In this document: piece by piece, positions 17,271-57,410 of the stretch
Layout of the letters: each line of letters opens with the position of its first letter
Numbering within the stretch: position 1 is the stretch's first letter
Source: Camelus dromedarius
Lineage: Eukaryota
Length of the DNA stretch: 64,000 nt
Direction: 5' to 3'
NCBI RefSeq assembly: GCF_036321535.1
Contig: NC_087436.1
Coordinates: forward strand, 81,594,001 to 81,658,000
Notes under the pieces: generated by a model
Databases searched by the model: none
Told to the model about the DNA's origin: nothing
Seen by the model: the letters and a program-made list of their open reading frames with translations, nothing else
Translations under genes and position numbers: made by a program

Positions 17271-18134
17271 GATTAGCAGTAATGGGGTACAGTGGGAATA
17301 ATTCCTATAGAAGCTAGCTAACTTCTCTCTGAATAAACTCCTGCCCAGTTCTGGAAAGCCATGTAGGATACGCCGTCAGTGCAGAAACATTAAATAAAAC
17401 ATAAAGTGATCAATATAAGCTATCAGCAGTTCTGAGGGAAAAAATAAAATGAACTTCTGAATAATGTGTTTTTATGTTAATACCAAAGTAGGATGCACCA
17501 GAGAAATGTAATTCCAACATACAAGAGTGTCCTTTTGACATGGAAATAAGACAATGAAGCACAAACATGTTGAGGGAATTACAATATGATAAAATAAATC
17601 TCCAAATTGGAGATGACTGGAGTCATGTCAATTTAAATTCATTTTTTACAACATTCTGTAAAAATGCTGAAAAAACTTTCAATGTTAAAGGTGATACCGT
17701 TGTCAAGAGTGAGTGATCACAAGGTTTGAGTGCCTGGGTATATGGTCTTGTACAGTGGAGAAAGAGGTGTATTCATGGTGCTTTGTAAAGCTAAAAAGGC
17801 CTGTGATGGCCAGTTGTTTGCAGTGCAGGTCATCAGTGAAAGACATTTTCACATCTGTTTTTCTATTCTTCTGTCCAGTGGGGGAGAAATAAAGAACATT
17901 TCCTAGATTGTGGTCTGTATAACACCTGGGTCCCACAAGACATTATATATACTCCGTGAGAAAAAAGGGGGAGGAAGGAGGAGGTTCTGTGGTCAAATAA
18001 ATCTGCAAATCCCTTTCTTGAAGTTTTACAATCTAGGTAAGCATAGGAGGAGACAAGCTGTAAACAAATTCAGTTAATTAGAACTCTCAAAATTATCTGA
18101 CCATGAGTTCTCCTCCCTTTTCTTCTCACCCATT

Positions 18135-18375
18135 CAATAATAAAAATAATGATCATAATCACGATCACTTACTGGGGACTTACTGTGGGTCACAGTTCTA
18201 CGTACCACTTTACATGTAAGACTCACCTAATCCTCATAAAAACCGTCTGAGGAACATGTTATCATCATCATCTCCATTTTACAAATGAAGAAACAAGCAC
18301 AGAGGGGCTAAGCGCACGGTCATGCCTCCTGCAGTAGAGGAAGAACCTGAATCCAGAACACCTGCCTCCAGCGAC
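18135..18375 (-). mobile_element. MIR SINE
   Basis: 'catctccattttacaaatgaagaaacaagcacagaggggctaag'. Confidence 0.85.
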
Positions 18376-18598
18376 GCTCCGCTCCTCCAGCAGCGAGCTG
18401 TGCGTGCTCAGTGCGTGCATTCCCTCCGGAAGGCTGCTGCGTTCACATCAGCTGTTTGAAGGGGTAGGAAAGGAAAAGGCTTCCCTGATGCTGAAACTGT
18501 CTGCTGATTCTGTCTAAGAAATCCTGTAGTTTGCTTTCTCTGCCTCACTGCATTTGTGCTAAGTAATCCCTGAACTTCTCCCTGACGGTCTTTACAAT

Positions 18599-18955
18599 TG
18601 TTTTAACCCAGAGGCTATGCTCCAGGAAGAAGGTAGAGGCCCGATAACCTCAGAAGAATGGACAGACCCTCGCAGTTCCTCCGTGACTCCAGAAAGATTC
18701 CTCGAGGCTAAGGGGGATGCAGCAGTACCCTGCAGTGCACCCTGGTGGTTATCATCTTTTCTGTTCTACCTAGTTTTTTTCTATGAAACTTGAAGGCCCC
18801 AACTCGAAGATGGATTCACAATCTGTATCTCTAAGGCATTAGCCTGCTCTGACTCCCCTTTACCTGGCAACGCAAGCTGTTCTTTTTCTCCCAAAACTCT
18901 AACTCCGAGTCTCAATCCGGCTTTCGGGGTGCAAGATGCCAGTTTTGCAGCAGCA
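18599..18955 (+). mobile_element. LTR-like element (ERV1)
   Basis: Ends 'tctcccaaaactct..ccgagtctcaatccggctttcggggtgca..gccagttttgcagca', typical U5; no TSD seen. Confidence 0.5.
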
Positions 18956-19029
18956 AGTTCTCATTTACTCCTCTGAACAACTTCCATTCCAAGGGTTGGT
19001 TGGAGATCCGTTCCCTGGTTTCCAGATCT

Positions 19030-19260: not shown

Positions 19261-19677
19261 CCACCTATGTTACTGCTGCTGTTTTGCTCATTGTTTCAGA
19301 CACAGAGTCAGCGTCTGTGCGGGCGTGGAGAACAACAGATGGATAACAGATGGGTAACAGCCTTTGACTGTTCAGGGTATGAAGTGACAAAGAAACAAGG
19401 GTCTTCATACCTACTTTCAGAAAAGCAAGATTTTTTCTTTCTTGCCACAGGGCCTAGCCATTTCTTTTCCCAGTCAAGTTTCTATGGTTTTACAACGAGC
19501 GGAAAGTCCCTTGGAATCTAGCAAAAGTAAATTTACCAATCTCTCTTTGTTTTTTGTTTTTTTTTTCTGTTGACTTTTTTTATTTGCCTCTGTTTTTATA
19601 GACATTTATGTTAGAAGATGGAAGTGAGTGCATTAGAGAAAGCTAGTGAGATGGTATTTTTAACCAAAATCCCAAAA

Positions 19678-19836
19678 TTTTTATATATATATATATAAAA
19701 GCACATATATATATAGTGCTTAGAACAGTGCCTGGTACAGAGTAAGCCCTGCAAGTGTTAGTTGTTGTAATTGTTATTATTTGTTACTTTTCAGCAACAC
19801 TGCCTCTCTAGGTAGTGATGGGAGGAGCAGTAACAG
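19678..19836 (+). repeat. Left arm of perfect 159-bp inverted repeat
   Basis: Exact reverse complement of 20240-20398. Confidence 0.97.
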
Positions 19837-20239
19837 GGAATTTTGCTTTTAAAGGCTATTCAACAAAATTTGCATCTTCTAAAAAAACTGAGATTTCTTT
19901 CCAGTTTTTTACTTAAAACTCAAGGAAATTTTCTTATTTGAAGAAAGCGGTTATATAAGTTCAGTGATGTTCCATTCATGAATTTCAAAGAAACCTAACA
20001 TCTGCATAGTGACATGGACTTTTGAAGAATTGCGTGGGCCAGCAGATCAAGTCACAGCCAGCTGTCGGTGTGCATCCCTTGATCTATAGCGCAGTGGGTC
20101 GTAACTGGATTTCCTCCCACTCTTTGGATCTGCAGCTGACTTGCTCAGGGCCTGGGCAGTATTGGCCTTCCAGCCTAGAGCAGTGTCTCTCTACAGGGCT
20201 TTGGTGACAGGGCCTCACCACCTCATTCCCATAGAGATT

Positions 20240-20398
20240 CTGTTACTGCTCCTCCCATCACTACCTAGAGAGGCAGTGTTGCTGAAAAGTAACAAATAAT
20301 AACAATTACAACAACTAACACTTGCAGGGCTTACTCTGTACCAGGCACTGTTCTAAGCACTATATATATATGTGCTTTTATATATATATATATAAAAA
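20240..20398 (-). repeat. Right arm of perfect 159-bp inverted repeat
   Basis: Exact reverse complement of 19678-19836. Confidence 0.97.
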
Positions 20399-20612
20399 AT
20401 ACGTATACTAACTCATTTAGTTTCATTCTTATAGCTATCCAATGACTTAGGATCTATTATTAGCCTTATTTTACAGATGAAGAAACTGAGGCGGAGAGAA
20501 GCGAAGAAACTGGCGCAAAGGCACACAACTAGTAAGCGGCACAGTTAGTAAATGGCCCAGCAGAGATTCAAATCCAGGCATCCGGCTCCAGAGTTCTTGC
20601 TCTTAACCTCAA
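20295..20612 (-). mobile_element. MIR SINE (near full length)
   Basis: 'ttttacagatgaagaaactgaggc', 'gattcaaatccaggca..ggctccagagttcttgctcttaacc'. Confidence 0.9.
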
Positions 20613-23401
20613 GGCTGCGCTGAATGAGGGTGCTGTGGAATTCCTTAGGCAAGTGACAGATGGGGTGGGGAGGAAGGCTGTCATCTCTAGAGCCTGTTCC
20701 CCTTCTACCTACCTACCTAAGAGTAGCCTTAGGCAGAGTAACTCTGTTGGTTTGCTGATGATACTTTTCAGTGTCACTGAAGACTGATGGGAAAGAAATT
20801 TAAAGCCTGAACCAACAGGATCTGGAAACTTGACGAATGGAGAGCGAGTTAGAGCTTGTCTGGCAGACCTCACTGTTAACAGAAATATAGAATCAGATCT
20901 GCCTTCAGGGACCTTGAGTTGCATTCAGGAAAGACAAGAATAAAGACACGCCATTTCAATTCAATGAGGAAAGTACTATGATCTGCTCCAGGTGTTGTAG
21001 GACAATGGAGGAGCACTTACCCAGCTGGGTGAGGAAAAAGGATCATCAGGGAAAGCTTCAAAGAGCAAAATCCATTTTCTAGGATTATAAACCAATAAAT
21101 CCAGTATTTCCCCTTTATAAGCAATCAACAAAAACATTTTTAAAATGTTATCTCTGCTTGTCATAGGTAAACAAAAACACTGAAACTTGTATTAGAGTGA
21201 TTCTAGTTTTGTTTCCTAAGCTATCTATTAATCTGAAGTATTTCTATCAAAATGTCTTATCCACAAACTTTCTGGTTTTTGCTTTTCTGTGTTGTGGGTT
21301 TTTTTTTTTTAACCAGAAATGAGCCATACGAACTCTACATACTATCTAAATATATCCTTACCCTTTTCCATATGGTAATCTTAAGAATATTCATCACCAG
21401 ATAAGAAACACAGCTGCTACTCTTTTAAAAAAAGAGTCGTGAGTAATGGTTTAGTCTACATTTCTAAACATCAGGTGTTCTAAAAATCTTAAGAGAGTCA
21501 AGTTATTTTTATTGTCCCTAAATGTTTTAGGCACAATGCAGTTTTCACCGTTTAAACGCTTACATTAAAATTATTCCCATTAATCCATAAATTGCACACT
21601 ACTGTATAAATTTGCCTAACTCCTTTAAAAAAAGACTAATCACTACCAAAAATAATTCAATAATGTTAATGATATCTAGAATCAAGCTATACCTTGGAAT
21701 TTATCTAAAAATTGGATCTCTGTGTCTGCATCGTTCATACTCTTGTGATAAAAAGTATGACTCACTGAACTGGATCACTGAGGCTTCAAATATGCAGAAA
21801 AGAAAATCTAACATGACAAAACACAATAGGATGAAGAGGTTGGATACATACAGGCTTTTGAGGTTACCACTGGAGATGTGATCACCAAGATCAGGGACTC
21901 AAATAAGGATGGAAAAATGGCACAGTGAGGAAAGAACCAGACTGTGGTGACCCAGAGAGCCCAATTCTAGCTTGAGTTTTGCCACCTCCCAAGTTCAGAT
22001 CCTCAGCTTCAGCATGAATAAAATAAAGCATCAGACTAGATGATCACCAGTGTCAAATTCTACAAAATCTAAGATTCTAAACTCTGCATTTGCTGCCTTA
22101 ATGTTGTCAAACTCCGCACTTTTCATCATGTGGGAAATTGCATGCTTTTCACTATTAAACATTTTAATCTAAAATTTCGTATGGTTTCAGATTATTCAAC
22201 TTTTTTCTAAACCAGAAATGGGCTGCATTTTACCGGCTGCAGGACAGTTGATCACAGCAATGCTTTGGGGAAACACCAGAGAGTCAAAATTATGATGATT
22301 AAGCTACAGAGTACTTCAACATTTCAAAGTCATGAGAAGGAGAAACCAGCAAAGGGAACCTGGGTAAGAGAAAAGGAAACCTGGGAGAGGGGACCGTGGT
22401 AGCAGGTGACCCACTGCACCGAGAGCTGCTGACGAGGACTGGCCACAGTGAAGTGGGGGCCCAGACAGCTGGAGAACTGGCCCAGATTTCACCTGTGCGT
22501 GATGGGGAACACAATATCAGAAAAAGTCTGGGACTTAAGTCATTTTTTCACTGAATATTTGTTGACATCTCAGCACAATGTTAGGCACTGGGGATACAAT
22601 AAGCAAAAGAACACAGCCTCTCCCTTATAGAATTCAATCTAGCAGTGTTTATGACCTATCTGGGTGAAATCAGTACTTCAAAAAAGCAACGGCTGAGGTG
22701 ATTTAAAGATCCTTAGCCAATTCTAGGTAGCCGCATTACATATCACACTGTCCCATGCCGGAGAAGAATGTGATGTTCTGATGAATGGTTCTCAGTGAAA
22801 ACATCTACGCACACCTCATTGCTGGCCCAATAGTTACAGATAAAGCACAAGGTTTTATTTGAGCAAAGGCAGTCAACTGAGCTACACACATATTTTTTTA
22901 AAGAAATGCATCTAGCTTTGGCATTTCAAACTGAGACATGACACTGGAAGGCTAGATGCTGGGATAAAAAAATTGTAAATGATAACATTTCAGCATAAAT
23001 TTTTCTTTTTTCAGATAATTCATTTCTCCAGACTGGCTATCTTCTATGTGATATTCCTGTGCACTGGTACTTGCCAACTTCCAAACTGAAAAGATTCCAA
23101 GGAACCAAATGCCCTTTGGTGAAAGCAGGAGAAAGAAAAACAAAATTTCAAGGGTTAATGCTACAAGTTCTTTTAAAATAAAATAGCTGGGAGTCAAATA
23201 TAAATAAATACATGCATAATCATATAATTTCTTTCTTACTAATTTTATAAATTTTTATACTTACAGTGAAAAAAAAAAAAAAAAACTTCAGGTAATCGTG
23301 CTTCCCTCAGGGAAGACCACCGTTACGTCAGACCTTTTTTTCAAATCTTCCTAAGCCACAGTGTCATTTCACTAATAGATCCCATGGAGAGAGACACTTA
23401 C

Positions 23402-23428
23402 TTCTCAGATTTCACAGGGTTGTTGATT
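23402..23428 (-). other. Candidate 27-nt micro-exon
   Basis: Minus strand: cttatacacactcttcag|AATCAACAACCCTGTGAAATCTGAGAA|gtaagt. Confidence 0.25.
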
Positions 23429-24509
23429 CTGAAGAGTGTGTATAAGGAAGTTGGCCAATTAATCAAGAACATTTCAAGCTTTTCAATATTTCCTAATTAT
23501 TAAAGTTTTAATTCTTGTTTAAGTGGTGTCCTGTATTCTATTTCTAATAAAATGTTTAGCGGAATATACAGAAACATGTGCAACTGACTGGTGTCCAAAA
23601 AAAGTGTAATATGATACTGATTCCATGATTATTAAGAAAATATAATCCTTCTTTCCACATCTCTGGCACAATTCTTAAAATGTCAAAGCACAATCCTCAT
23701 TTAATTCTGTCAACAATATCTTGGAGGGAAAAGCATTTGAGTGAATGAATGAGGAGATGCCTGGGATCAACTGTGTTTGTGGCGTAGCAATAATAGATGA
23801 GTTTTGAACAGGGCTGACAAGTCAAAGGATGGGAACAGCTTCAGCAAAGGAGATAATGTGGCTGTGGGAGGGGCAGCGGAACTACTCAGAGAAGGCTGTG
23901 GGGTCTGTGATCTCATAACTGTTTTTATCTAACTCACTAGTATTATTTCCCTGCCCACGCTGTCAAGCTGCTCTCCTCTTGTGAGAAAGGTATCAGTGCA
24001 TAAAACTAAGTTGGCATGAGATGTTTTGTCAAGAAAGCCACTACCAATGTGCCCATCTACCCTAAATTTCCTTCTCTCCCCTTCTACAAAGGCAACTATG
24101 TCTGTGGTTTCAGTACTCGACATTGAATAAAATTACTAAGTCTCCAACAAAATCTAAAACCTATTTCATGTCCTCTACTTAAGATGTCAATAAAAAATGG
24201 ATATATTTCTATAAAAAATTAATGCGTCAAAATGTCATTACCTAAAGGGTCCAAGTTTCAAGTATTTGGAAATATTAAAAACAAAGGATTATTCATCCCT
24301 TGTGAGTTAGGTGTTCACTATACTTTTGAGGAATAAAAACTTAGAGAACATTCTCTAATTATTTTGAAAGGAAAAGTAGATTGACAGAAGCTTGCAGCTA
24401 TTAGTTTAGCTCTCTTTAGTTTGCTAGGTTGAAAGAAGAGCAGTCCTGCTTTAGAATGAGTTTAACGTCATCTTTTTCTAGTGCTAGTAACGTAACTGGT
24501 ACCCCACTT

Positions 24510-29467: not shown

Positions 29468-31564
29468 GCAGAATTTGGCACAAGGAGAGGAAAATCATCA
29501 GAGGTGCCTGCGCAAAACAGCCAGCAGGAGCTTTGACCTTGACGAGGTAGAGAGGGTGGCCACAGGGTCAGAAATGACCAATGAGGCCACCAAAAGCTAT
29601 GACTATTAGATCCACTAGCTGGGGGAAAATGCTGATGGGAAGAGCCCCCTCTGAGTGGGGTCTGTTGGGAACAGACACTTTGGCCACAGCCATAAGTAAC
29701 TGCCAACGGAACTTCCACATCAGACGTTTAGCATTGAGGGTCATGTAGTGGGTTATATGCTTTGTAAGGAAGGGATGAGTCTAATAGCTTCTTCCGGGGA
29801 ACTTGATGGGCTTAAAAACCAGACACTTCTTGCAGAGGATATATTGAGTTTCATTTACTTCATTAAATATTTACTGAGTACTCAGTGTGTGTCAGGCCCT
29901 GTGCTGGCTGTCAGGAATGCAGTGATGAAAACAGCCTACCCTCAGGGAATGTATGCTCTAGAGAGAAATACAATTACAACAAATCTGGTTTTCAGATTCC
30001 TGGGATAGGTTGTGACCCAGTCAAAGGGGATCTACACTGATGATCCTCATATATCTAAAACTTCAAAATCACAGTACTCTTCATTTTCAAAGAGCAAAAA
30101 CTACTTAACTTGTTTCTCTACTCAAATGCTCCGATTTTTCCCCTCTTATTTTAAATTTCTCAGCCATTTCACTGGCATTTCAGGCAGCTGCTTTTTCTCC
30201 ATTTCAGAGCAATCAATATATGAACATTTTAAACAGCAAAAAAAGCACTTCAGTTCCAAATGTATTTTTCTGCTGGCAACCATGTGCACAATCATTTGGA
30301 TTTACATGACAATGCTGGCCAGCCAAAGTCAGTGAGCCTTCCTGAAAACACATTTGACTCAACGATGACCGATGTGCTGTCACTTCTCATTCAGGCCCAG
30401 CTGCCTAACAATAGCAAGGTAACATTATTAATAAATTACTGGCATAGCTAGTTAGGAAATGTACAATCCAGTTATGTACAGTTTTAAATTCACTACAGGC
30501 AAAACGCTCACTACTCTTCCACATGTGACTCCCAGGCCCATCTTCAGGGCAATTGAACCATGTGGCCTTTGTAGACCAGTCATTAGTATTCAGAATAAGA
30601 AACAATTGCTTGGAACAGGAAACACAGAAGCCAGACACTTGGCAGCATCACACAGGGTTCACTGCTGAAGTCAACCATCAGAGACTGGCTGACAGTAACT
30701 GGCCTCTGTTGCCATGGAAACAGCAGCTGAGCTGTATTAGTAAATAGTTTGGGTTCTCTCACCTGCCAGGACATAAATTCAGAATTTACTGCTGGTTTTT
30801 AAGTCCGCTATTTGTAAGTGACCTATTTATGAAGTAAATACTAGAAATACTTGCTTCAGAAGGAATATCCAAACATTTGTAAAAAAGTAACTGAATCTTA
30901 AGGTATCCAAACACAATTAAATTTAATTGTGCAAAGTATCTGACAAAAACGTCTGCCTCTCCATTCTAACGGTTGCTTATTTTGCCAAAAACTAGTTCTT
31001 AAAAATACATAAATAAAGTAAAAATATAAATGGTGAGGATGTGAGGATAATTCTAAAGACTTCCAAATTTAAGGTAAAGAGTCAAGTCACTTTTCAATTT
31101 TATTCAAGCTATATATAGTTGTATATTTCACATTGTAATAAAGCCATATTTATTTTAGATTTCTCTCACTCATTGCCAAATGAAAGTAAGGCTGCCCCAT
31201 GCCCACTTTTGACTCTAACATCCCCTTACAGGAATTCCTCTGTCTTGATAATTGTAATTATTATCATTACTAGCTTATAGATATATAAAGCATGACAGAA
31301 GAAAAATGTCTCAACTATAGTAATTCAGGAAAAAAGCCATAACGCAAACCTCTAACTCTCAGCTCGCTTAATCCTTATCTCTTCTAGGTCATTCTCGCTT
31401 CATTAAGCGTCTTCTTTCAACTTTTTTCAATTTCATGCTGAATTATATTTTCCCATAAGGTCTACAAGTAAAAGAGTTATTCTGGGATTTTGTTGTGAGA
31501 AGCAAACTCCCCTCATCAACAAATGCTAAAACATGCCCATCACCCTCTTCTGTGATTTCTACTT

Positions 31565-39364: not shown

Positions 39365-39475
39365 GGAGGGGAATAGCTCAGTGGTAGAGTGCATGCTTAG
39401 CATGCATGAGGTCCTGAGTTCAATACCCAGTACCTCCATTAAATAATTAATTAATTAAAATAAAGTAAATTTTTA
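39365..39475 (+). mobile_element. tRNA-Ala(AGC)-derived SINE (camelid vic-1-like) inserted in a MIR
   Basis: A box 'tagctcagtgg', B box 'gagttcaatacc', anticodon arm catgc-ttAGCat-gcatg, AT-rich tail; 16-bp TSD aaaagtgagatggcac / aaaagtgaaatgggac (39349-39364, 39476-39491). Confidence 0.9.
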
Positions 39476-55267: not shown

Positions 55268-55590
55268 CTTTTTTTTTTTTAACTTTTTTATTGCAGTATA
55301 GTTAGTTCACAATGTTGTGTCAGTTTCTGGTGTACAGAATAATAGTTCAGTCATACATATACATACATACATTCCTTTTCATATTCTTTTTCATTAGAGA
55401 CTACTATAAGATACTGAATATAGTTCCCTGTGCTATACTGAAGAAACTTGTTTACCTAGTTTATATATAGTAATTAGTATTTGAAAATTTTGAACTCCCA
55501 ATTTATCCCTTCCCACTCCCTTACCCCCAGTAACCATAAGTTTGTTTACTACATCTGCGAGTCTGTTTCTGTTTTGTAGATGAGTTCATT
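55268..55590 (-). mobile_element. L1 3' end (camelid-type)
   Basis: Poly(T), then 'ttattgcagtatagtt..tgtgtcagtttctggtgtacag', 'taaccataagtttgttt'. Confidence 0.9.
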
Positions 55591-55704
55591 AAGGGTTTGA
55601 AAGAGGACAGGACACAGTGAGAGCTTCAATCATTAGCCCAACAGTCTCATTTCACTCTTCAGACATTGTAGTCAACATTTTTCTTTATTTTTCCCAAGAG
55701 GCAA

Positions 55705-56430
55705 TAAAGTGTAATGTGGAAGAGTACAGATTCTGCTCCGCCACTCACTAACTCTGGGACCTTGAACATGTTGCTTGACCTCTCTGCGCCACAATTTGTT
55801 CATCTGTAAAAGGAGCATGATAATAGTACCTACCTTACCGTAAGGTATTGTGAAGAATAAATGAGGCAATATGTGTAATGTACTTGGGATATTGCCTGGC
55901 TCAGAGTAAGTTCTCTATAAGCATTTACTACTATGATTACTATATAATTCATGTCATAAGGATTATAAAAATAATATCTAATAGTCAGTGAAAATTATGC
56001 TAAGTGATTTCCATTTATTCCTTACATAAACCTTGTTAAGTAGGTACTGTTACTGTCCCAATTATAAATGAAACAGAGGTTCAGAGAAGTCATGAAGGGC
56101 TCCAAAATTACCCAGGCAGTAAGCGACAGAGTTAGGACTCAAGTCCAAAAGTCTGATTCCAGAATCAAGTTCTAAACCACCATGCTACTTCAGATGGGTA
56201 ATAAATAATACTTGCTAATGGGTACTGAAGTTTGCTCCGTCCCAGGCACTGTTCTAATAACTTTAAATCTCTTCTATCTTACATCTCTTGCAAAAAATTA
56301 AGTGAAATTTTCAGAACTACCCTATGAGACACATACATTTATTGTTCCTATTTTACAAGTGAGAAAACCAAGAAATCAAGCATTGGTTAACACAGCCAAG
56401 ATCACAAAATCAGCAGATGGCTAAAGCAGG
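55705..56430. mobile_element. Cluster of three MIRs (+ ~55705-55945; - ~55965-56190; - ~56200-56430)
   Basis: MIR cores 'catctgtaaaaggagcatgataatagtacctacc', 'aaatgaaacagaggttcagagaagt', 'ttttacaagtgagaaaacc'. Confidence 0.8.
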
Positions 56431-57410
56431 TAAACCTCATATTGAAAGATGTGTAAAGCTGAGGTGTTAAATTTAAACTTCAGTGACCTAATATCAGATG
56501 GAGTATGACAATTTTCAAAAAGGAAACTCCCTCCTGGTATATCCAGCTAAACAACTTCTAAACCAGAATGATTAAGGCTGATACTCAACTTTAGAATCAT
56601 AAAAGAAAGAATTGATTAAATGCTAGTATATTCTGATTTGCCTCACTACTCAGTCATCATCCCACCTCTAATAGCAGCTATTTTCAGTAGTCATTTTCAT
56701 TCTGTCCTCTACAATTCGAACAGATTCACTATCAGCAAATAAGGATCAACTTTTCATAGGAAGCAAGACCATTGCCTTCCTCTGGTTTCTGCCCCATGGA
56801 AGTTAGAGACAATGCAGAGAGAGATGGTGGATAAATACTCAGTCACCCATGCAACTAAGACAAGGGGAGAATCTGTCAATGATATATTCAGCCGAAACTC
56901 ACAGGAATTTATAAGCATTGTGTATCAATAGTAATGGGTAACAACTGATTGGGTGCTGAGCAGGGGCACAGCAGTCCAACAATTCTTGAGATATTCATGC
57001 AAATTATAAAAATGAGTTTTGGTTTAGTGAGCAGAGCACAGGTTTGGTTGTAGCTCCAAACACTCACTGAGCTTCAACATTATGTATTAAGGGTTTGGTG
57101 TATGTTACAATGGGCCTCAAAGGGTTTGAGTTAATATGAGAAGGTGCCTTTAGAAGTCCAGAGAGACATGATTGATAGCAAGGACAGAAACATACTGTTA
57201 CAGACCTTGGGAAAAGATTGAATAAAATACAAGAGTCAAGAAGGAAGATGGCCAGCAAATTTTCTTTACAAGATGGTTGTGTGGGAGGATAACAATGTGC
57301 CATGGGAAATAATACCAGTTAGATGGTTAGAACAAGTTACAGGATCCTTTATACTCACAGCAGAATTAAATATCTGATTTGCTAGGCAAGGGAAAGCCTG
57401 GCAGGAATAT

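What the first reader, a model, noticed from the sequence alone, without database searches (positions are those of the whole stretch)
19678..20398. Perfect 159-bp inverted duplication around a 403-bp spacer
Seen: 19678-19836 is the exact reverse complement of 20240-20398, including identical lengths of two unstable (AT)n runs. The right arm continues into a near full-length MIR. The left arm carries only the MIR tail plus unique flank, so the left arm is the copy. Because MIRs are ancient, zero divergence implies a very recent template-switch duplication (MMBIR/FoSTeS-type), ongoing arm-to-arm gene conversion, or an assembly error. Inference: if this lies in an intron, the pre-mRNA would form a perfect ~159-bp dsRNA stem (ADAR substrate, possible endo-siRNA source or PKR ligand). 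The DNA would be prone to inversion of the spacer.
Basis: partly seen in the sequence, partly recalled or inferred. Interest (0 to 1): 0.7.

Follow-up and report, generated by a model that had tools for sequence, protein, structure and literature searches.

The report
Small local inverted duplication, non-coding DNA
A 159-base piece of non-coding mammalian DNA has a perfect flipped copy 403 bases away, most likely left by one DNA-copying slip of a well-described kind; nothing shows that it has a function, and an assembly error is not excluded.

Summary
19678-19836 is the perfect reverse complement of 20240-20398, and the next-longest exact inverted match in the window is 22 nt. The left arm is the copy: a SINE profile built from other copies in the window runs through the right arm's outer edge (20295-20601) but matches only the tail on the left. 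Similarity falls to background at both edges, which argues against an old repeat kept alike by conversion. The junctions carry short microhomology-like marks, the donor starts at a 22-nt AT palindrome, and base composition favours an un-inverted spacer. The best reading is a single template switch (type 1-4-3-2, MMBIR-like), the known class of small local 'inverted duplications' (PMC4617611). Zero divergence bounds the age only to under about 4 My, not 'very recent'. No reads were laid on the locus, so misassembly, polymorphism, spacer flipping and RNA editing are untested. The scan noted similar perfect hairpins on other DNA (e1-7801956, e1-7222654). Verdict: ordinary, low interest.

The parts
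19678..19836 (+). Left arm: derived inverted copy of 20240-20398
   Evidence: 159 of 159 complementary; the SINE profile matches only its tail portion and nothing further upstream
19837..20239 (.). 403-nt spacer, single copy in the window; AT-rich left half (GC 0.30), GC-rich right half (GC 0.54); probably in ancestral orientation
20240..20398 (+). Right arm: donor, made of about 55 nt of unique flank plus the SINE tail with two (AT)n expansions
20295..20601 (-).
   Evidence: nhmmer E 9e-25 with a profile built from 11 other copies in the window; 67% identity over 141 nt to a copy at 55740-55877
19707..19781 (+). Copied SINE tail inside the left arm
   Evidence: nhmmer E 9e-08, profile positions 365-454 only
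20376..20397 (.). Perfect 22-nt palindrome T4(AT)7A4 at the donor's outer breakpoint (its copy lies at 19679-19700)
19676..19681 (+). AATTTT across the outer junction of the copy; repeated at 19839-19844, two bases after the inner junction
   Evidence: empirical P 0.026 (0.051 in AT-rich contexts)
20225..20229 (-). GGAAT in the donor's continuation, 10 nt past the arm end; identical to the first five bases after the copy (19837-19841)
   Evidence: empirical P 0.021

Best explanation
A real germline templated insertion made in one replication or repair event (four-point type 1-4-3-2, or its mirror 3-2-1-4; MMBIR- or Pol theta-like). A nascent 3' end at an AT-rich site near 19678 left its template. 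It annealed by 3-5 bases to the opposite strand 0.4-0.7 kb away, at the edge of an (AT)n palindrome in an old SINE, copied about 160 nt backwards and returned with little or no loss. SHOWN: the identity of the arms, the direction of copying and the sharp edges. INFERRED: the pre-insertion sequence, the microhomologies, the polymerase, and an age under about 4 My. It is most likely neutral. If the region is an intron, the pre-mRNA can fold a 159-bp stem as a by-product.
For: Direction of copying from the SINE profile. No decayed homology beyond the arms: 19 of 80 and 17 of 80 in register; local-alignment P 0.26 and 0.996. A 6-nt direct repeat across the insertion (P 0.026-0.051) allows a lossless insertion with 4 nt of T/A microhomology at one end and 3 nt plus a 2-nt slip at the other; the modelled empty site is a 10-bp palindrome, and such centres occur at 0.19% of positions. 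The first five bases after the copy recur 10 nt further along the donor (P 0.021). GC continuity favours an un-inverted spacer, 42 to 1 among background segments with as large a difference. Size and distance fit the human 'inverted duplication' class (PMC4617611). Type 1-4-3-2 makes up 31% of human-chimp events (PMC5453318). Such events are enriched in AT-rich and poly(dA:dT) DNA (PMC7954356). About 100 germline templated insertions were found per person (PMC8421209).
Against: No read-level confirmation of either new junction. No ancestral or orthologous allele was found: no genome held, 0 look-alike windows, 0 metagenome matches. The junction statistics are modest, were chosen after looking, and are not independent of each other (they share the AAT bases). 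A pure insertion at the nominal boundaries has 0 microhomology at both ends. At 159 nt the copy is longer than the longest gold-standard short-range event in apes (median 12, maximum 128; PMC7954356). The spacer's AT skew leans slightly the other way (likelihood ratio 1.8 for inversion).
Confidence: 0.72

Rival explanations
1. Assembly or library artefact (fold-back chimera, gap-filling or polishing error): the left arm does not exist in the animal.
For: Perfect identity, including both microsatellite lengths. Amplified-DNA long reads are known to yield artificial inverted duplications (PMC6218980). The run search did not cover the left arm or its junctions.
Against: The sequence switches out and returns cleanly after 159 nt with microhomology-like marks, unlike the fold-back palindromes described in that paper. 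There are no Ns and no other such repeat in the 64 kb. The same class was validated by long reads and PCR in humans (PMC4617611).
Confidence: 0.13
2. The same kind of switch, but of type 1-3-4-2: arm and spacer were copied backwards together, so the spacer is inverted relative to the ancestor.
For: This type makes up 23% of human-chimp events (PMC5453318). Spacer AT skew is -0.087 against a window mean of +0.044 (likelihood ratio 1.8).
Against: Microhomology is 0 at both junctions under this model. The summed GC jumps at the joints are 0.48 against 0.12 for the un-inverted model. The neighbouring left flank is also T-rich, so the skew is local.
Confidence: 0.05
3. An old inverted pair kept identical by arm-to-arm gene conversion, or by selection for an RNA stem.
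For: Identity includes the mutable (AT)n runs. The stem folds far better than shuffles (z -36), as any perfect inverted repeat would.
Against: No decayed homology outside the perfect tract. No SINE body upstream of the left arm. Zero differences are unremarkable for any age up to 1-4 My.
Confidence: 0.04
4. RNA-templated insertion (L1 target-primed reverse transcription, or RNA-templated repair) of a short + strand transcript primed at the donor's A6 tract.
For: On the minus strand the insert ends in an A run that merges with a 6-nt direct repeat, and there are 2 extra bases at its other end.
Against: No added poly(A): the A run is no longer than in the donor. The site does not match the canonical L1 endonuclease motif (recalled). 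Landing 0.4-0.7 kb from the source is not expected of retrotransposition. Window composition points to minus-strand transcription. Human inverted duplications were 'not typically associated with retrotransposition' (PMC4617611).
Confidence: 0.03

Closest known systems
'Inverted Dup' structural variants of the 1000 Genomes phase 3 SV map (PMC4617611; passages seen)
   Same: A duplicated stretch under 1 kb inserted in inverted orientation within 5 kb of its source; 54% of the characterised inversion sites (229 verified) were of this type; attributed to replication errors.
   Different: Those were validated polymorphisms; here neither polymorphism nor read support was tested.
Four-point template-switch mutations, type 1-4-3-2 / 3-2-1-4 (PMC5453318: first part of the text and passages; PMC7954356: passages)
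   Same: A new perfect inverted repeat with an un-inverted spacer, no pre-existing repeat needed, AT-rich context.
   Different: The copied fragment is 159 nt, against median 12 and maximum 128 in the ape gold-standard set; the ancestral allele is not available to place the four points.
Germline MMBIR-linked templated insertions, MMB-TI (PMC8421209; passages)
   Same: A locally templated insertion with microhomology or microhomeology at the junctions, possibly with a second small switch.
   Different: The microhomology here is inferred from a modelled empty site, not observed against a reference allele.
Template-switch-born miRNA hairpins (bioRxiv 10.1101/2023.04.19.537475; passages)
   Same: One event creates a perfect RNA stem, often in an intron.
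   Different: Their miRNA-like class has 30-55-base stems; this has a 159-bp stem around a 403-nt loop, and no small-RNA evidence.
Inverted SINE pairs in introns as ADAR substrates (recalled; PMC5080714 seen only as a search listing)
   Same: Two inverted repeat-derived arms within 1 kb that can pair in a transcript.
   Different: These are not two independent insertions but one copy of the other, 100% paired, and including unique flank.

Membership tests
Small local inverted duplication (inv-dup) | Duplicated stretch under 1 kb, inverted | tested here: met
   159 nt, exact
Small local inverted duplication (inv-dup) | Inserted within 5 kb of the source copy | tested here: met
   403 nt between the arms
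Small local inverted duplication (inv-dup) | One copy is derived and the source stays in its context | tested here: met
   SINE continuous across the right arm's edge, truncated on the left
Small local inverted duplication (inv-dup) | An allele or species without the copy exists; junctions supported by reads | not tested
   No reads were laid; no orthologue found
Template switch type 1-4-3-2 | Spacer in ancestral orientation | tested here: inconclusive
   GC continuity 42 to 1 in favour (overlapping segments); AT skew 1.8 to 1 against; no outgroup
Template switch type 1-4-3-2 | No pre-existing long repeat needed; sharp edges | tested here: met
   Background identity beyond both edges
MMBIR-linked templated insertion | Microhomology or microhomeology at the switch points | tested here: inconclusive
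   4 nt, and 3 nt plus a 2-nt slip, under the modelled empty site (P 0.026-0.051); 5 nt at offset 10 (P 0.021); 0 at the nominal boundaries
MIR SINE (donor element) | Match to the curated MIR consensus | not testable with these tools
   No repeat library here; the name is recalled. Shown only that it belongs to an old dispersed family, with 12 profile hits elsewhere in the window
Template-switch-born miRNA | Stem of 30-55 bases with a central loop | tested here: not met
   159-bp stem and 403-nt loop; no Rfam match at the locus
ADAR-edited intronic dsRNA | Both arms in one transcript | tested here: inconclusive
   A+C fraction 0.523 on + suggests minus-strand transcription; unlaid RNA rows hold 0.62-0.65 of the words of 19840-24000; no exon identified
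ADAR-edited intronic dsRNA | Clustered A-to-G changes in RNA reads | not tested
   No reads were laid

The most novel reading that the evidence does not exclude
The copy is real, young and still segregating, and lies in a transcribed intron. Carriers make a perfectly paired 159-bp RNA stem that non-carriers lack. The stem is hyper-edited or diced, and it buries an acceptor-like site in the donor arm (weak minus-strand exon candidate 20219-20281). That would be a natural presence/absence test of what one newborn perfect dsRNA does to its host gene, and of whether its spacer flips.
Probability: 0.05. Interest if true: 0.5.

Novelty: new member of a known kind. Interest (0 to 1): 0.17.

Why it matters
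Little as it stands. It is one instance of a mutation class that made up 54% of the characterised human inversion sites (PMC4617611) and whose short forms number in the thousands along primate lineages (PMC5453318; bioRxiv 10.1101/2023.04.19.537475). It could serve as a lineage or population marker and as a tidy example of a template-switch scar at an (AT)n palindrome. It would matter more only if RNA reads showed allele-specific editing, small RNAs or a splicing change.

Tried and rejected
Own-genome search: no genome held. Pfam on 243 of 243 stop-to-stop frames of at least 58 aa: 3 weak hits, all below their curated cut-offs, so no host gene was identified. A crude splice-site scan with recalled weights gave 22 rows (9 on +, 13 on -) and no recognisable exon. 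Rfam: 1 hit, far from the locus. Tandem Repeats Finder: 0 of 11 rows at the locus. Run search: the query 19840-24000 left out the left arm on purpose, so its shares say nothing about that arm. Of 24 rows, 14 hold 0.99-1.00, and 12 of these are marked as possible sources. No reads were laid on the locus (one search returned none). A metagenome scan with a spacer pattern gave 0 matches. Earlier findings: 0 near the locus, 0 in relatives. AT skew as a test of spacer orientation was uninformative. A hairpin formed by the two flanks of a pure insertion was considered and set aside, because it rests on the same bases as the direct repeat. Paper searches on long inverted repeats in introns and on editing in camels returned nothing on this locus or species. 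These two searches, are all that was searched, so absence from print is not established. No supplementary files were read; structural-variant tables for camelids could list this site.

Full report
OBSERVATION. The feature is in the window exactly as described. Positions 19678-19836 equal the reverse complement of 20240-20398 at 159 of 159 bases, with 403 nt between them. An exhaustive scan for exact inverted matches of 20 nt or more found nothing else above 22 nt, and the chance expectation is about 1e-82. Both (AT)n runs have equal lengths in the two arms. The arms are 35% GC and contain no CpG. The window has no N.

CONTEXT. The window looks like non-coding mammalian DNA. It is CpG-depleted. 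None of 243 reading frames of at least 58 aa had a credible Pfam hit; 3 weak hits were below cut-off. A crude splice scan gave no recognisable exon among 22 rows. The only Rfam hit is far away. The + strand has an A+C fraction of 0.523 (binomial z 11.5, which overstates certainty because bases are not independent). Mammalian introns carry a T+G excess on the non-template strand (PMC2927911, passages), so the window probably lies in a minus-strand transcription unit. This is inference. In the run search, 2 RNA-seq rows held 0.65 and 0.62 of the words of 19840-24000, and 3 rows of guessed kind held 0.70-0.89. None was laid, and DNA carry-over could explain them.

WHICH ARM IS THE COPY. I built a profile from 11 other copies of the same old dispersed repeat in the window, leaving the target locus out. 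It matches 20295-20601 on the minus strand as one element (E 9e-25), running through the right arm's outer edge, with the (AT)n block as an insertion relative to the other copies. On the left it matches only 19707-19781 (E 9e-08) and nothing upstream. The order of events is therefore SINE insertion, then microsatellite growth, then duplication, and the left arm is derived. One result pointed the other way: a BLAST alignment to a paralogue at 56232-56321 extended 25 nt past the left arm into the left flank. The profile search did not support it, and a local alignment of the two outer flanks scored at background (P 0.26).

EDGES AND JUNCTIONS. In register beyond the arms, identity is 19 of 80 outside and 17 of 80 inside, so there is no decayed halo of the kind an old repeat under conversion would leave. 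The donor's outer breakpoint abuts a perfect 22-nt palindrome, T4(AT)7A4, at 20376-20397. AATTTT spans the copy's outer junction (19676-19681) and recurs at 19839-19844 (P 0.026 against 20,000 random contexts; 0.051 in AT-rich contexts). Reading this as a lossless insertion gives 4 nt of T/A microhomology at one end. At the other end it gives 3 nt (AAT, the donor's own next bases) interrupted by two extra G. The modelled empty site is a 10-bp perfect palindrome; such centres occur at 0.19% of window positions. The five bases after the copy, GGAAT, also occur 10 nt further along the donor (20225-20229, minus strand; P 0.021), so the two G may come from a second small slip. These tests were chosen after looking, share bases and are modest. 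With the nominal boundaries taken as a pure insertion, microhomology is 0 at both ends.

SPACER ORIENTATION. Two one-step events give this layout: a simple inverted insertion (1-4-3-2) or arm plus spacer copied backwards (1-3-4-2), 31% and 23% of human-chimp events (PMC5453318). The AT-rich left flank (GC 0.32) meets the AT-rich spacer start (0.26), and the GC-rich spacer end (0.56) meets the GC-rich inner arm (0.50). The summed jumps are 0.12, against 0.48 if the spacer were flipped. Among 1195 overlapping background segments, differences of at least 0.3 favoured the true orientation in 42 and the flipped one in 1. AT skew leans weakly the other way (likelihood ratio 1.8). The inverted-spacer model has no microhomology at either end. 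I favour the un-inverted spacer.

AGE. With 1.1e-8 per site per generation and five-year generations (PMC7305198, passages), zero differences give a median of about 1 My under a flat prior and a 95% upper bound of 4.3 My. The bound runs from 2.7 to 8.6 My over the rates tried, and camel rate calibrations are uncertain (PMC12337305, passages). Equal microsatellite lengths tighten this by an amount I did not compute. The event is young relative to the SINE, but could be anything from a private variant to nearly as old as the dromedary-Bactrian split (4.4-7.3 Mya, PMC7305198).

IS IT REAL? This is not settled. The run search left out the left arm so as not to favour carriers. It found 14 of 24 rows at 0.99-1.00, 12 of them marked as possible sources, which shows only that the spacer, right arm and right flank exist in public data. 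No reads were laid on the locus, no genome is held, and no orthologue turned up. Amplification can create artificial inverted duplications (PMC6218980, passages). The clean switch-and-return, the junction marks and the match to a validated human class argue for a real variant. I give artefact 0.13.

MECHANISM. Most likely (0.72) a nascent 3' end detached at an AT-rich site, primed on the opposite strand 0.4-0.7 kb away through a few bases, copied about 160 nt in reverse and rejoined. The direction of the fork is not determined. A rightward fork would switch between strands at the A tract beside the AT palindrome. A leftward fork gives the mirror event, entering at the AAT/GGAAT end. PMC5453318 found no evidence of intra-strand events in its data. 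Shown: identity, direction of copying, sharp edges. Inferred: empty site, microhomology, enzyme, neutrality. Any transcript across both arms can fold the 159-bp stem (-421 kcal/mol for 19600-20480, z -36 against 20 shuffles), which follows from the repeat and is no evidence of function. Editing is plausible by analogy with inverted SINE pairs (recalled). PKR activation or endo-siRNA from a nuclear intron is less likely (recalled). Neither was tested.

COMPARISON WITH WHAT IS KNOWN. It works like, and on the tested features belongs to, the small local inverted duplications of the 1000 Genomes SV map: 54% of the characterised inversion sites (229 verified), nearly all under 1 kb and within 5 kb of the source, not typically linked to retrotransposition (PMC4617611, passages). 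It is a long example of the four-point template switch (median 12, maximum 128 nt in apes, AT-rich context; PMC7954356, passages). It resembles germline MMB-templated insertions (103 and 99 in two people; PMC8421209, passages). It fails the stem-size criterion for template-switch-born miRNAs (bioRxiv 10.1101/2023.04.19.537475, passages). Of PMC5453318 I saw the first of six parts and passages. PMC5080714 was seen only as a listing. No supplements were read. Earlier notes of this scan reached similar readings for shorter perfect hairpins on other DNA and for an old inverted SINE pair in this genome; these are unchecked and are not counted as support.

VERDICT. This is a new member of a known kind, interest 0.17. 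The most novel reading not excluded is a segregating, transcribed, edited perfect stem that affects its host gene (probability 0.05, interest 0.5).

Noticed in passing
window 39367-39438 (+): tRNA-Ala(AGC)-like sequence found by Rfam and ARAGORN, followed at once by an A/T-rich tail; it looks like a tRNA retrocopy or tRNA-derived SINE head rather than a working gene.
   Followed up: partly
window 30708-30721: A near-palindromic 14-mer resembling an RFX X-box (name recalled), the only match to the pattern in the window; a possible regulatory site.
   Followed up: no
window 20219-20281 (-): Weak exon-like candidate from a crude splice scan (score 9.3), with its acceptor inside the donor arm; the stem would bury it, and the copy places the same acceptor-like site on the + strand of the left arm.
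   Followed up: no
window 1-64000: A+C excess on + in all three sub-ranges tested, suggesting that the whole window is intron of a minus-strand gene; host gene not identified.
   Followed up: partly
window about 18550-19000: Lies in the 1-kb bin with the most CpG in the window (18001-19000: 23 CpG); by eye it resembles a solo LTR (recalled, untested).
   Followed up: no
window about 55570-56480: Cluster of three overlapping profile hits of the same old SINE family, in both orientations: an ordinary diverged inverted pair for comparison.
   Followed up: no
window 20021-20239: GC-rich (0.54) single-copy half of the spacer with most of its CpGs; conservation not tested.
   Followed up: no
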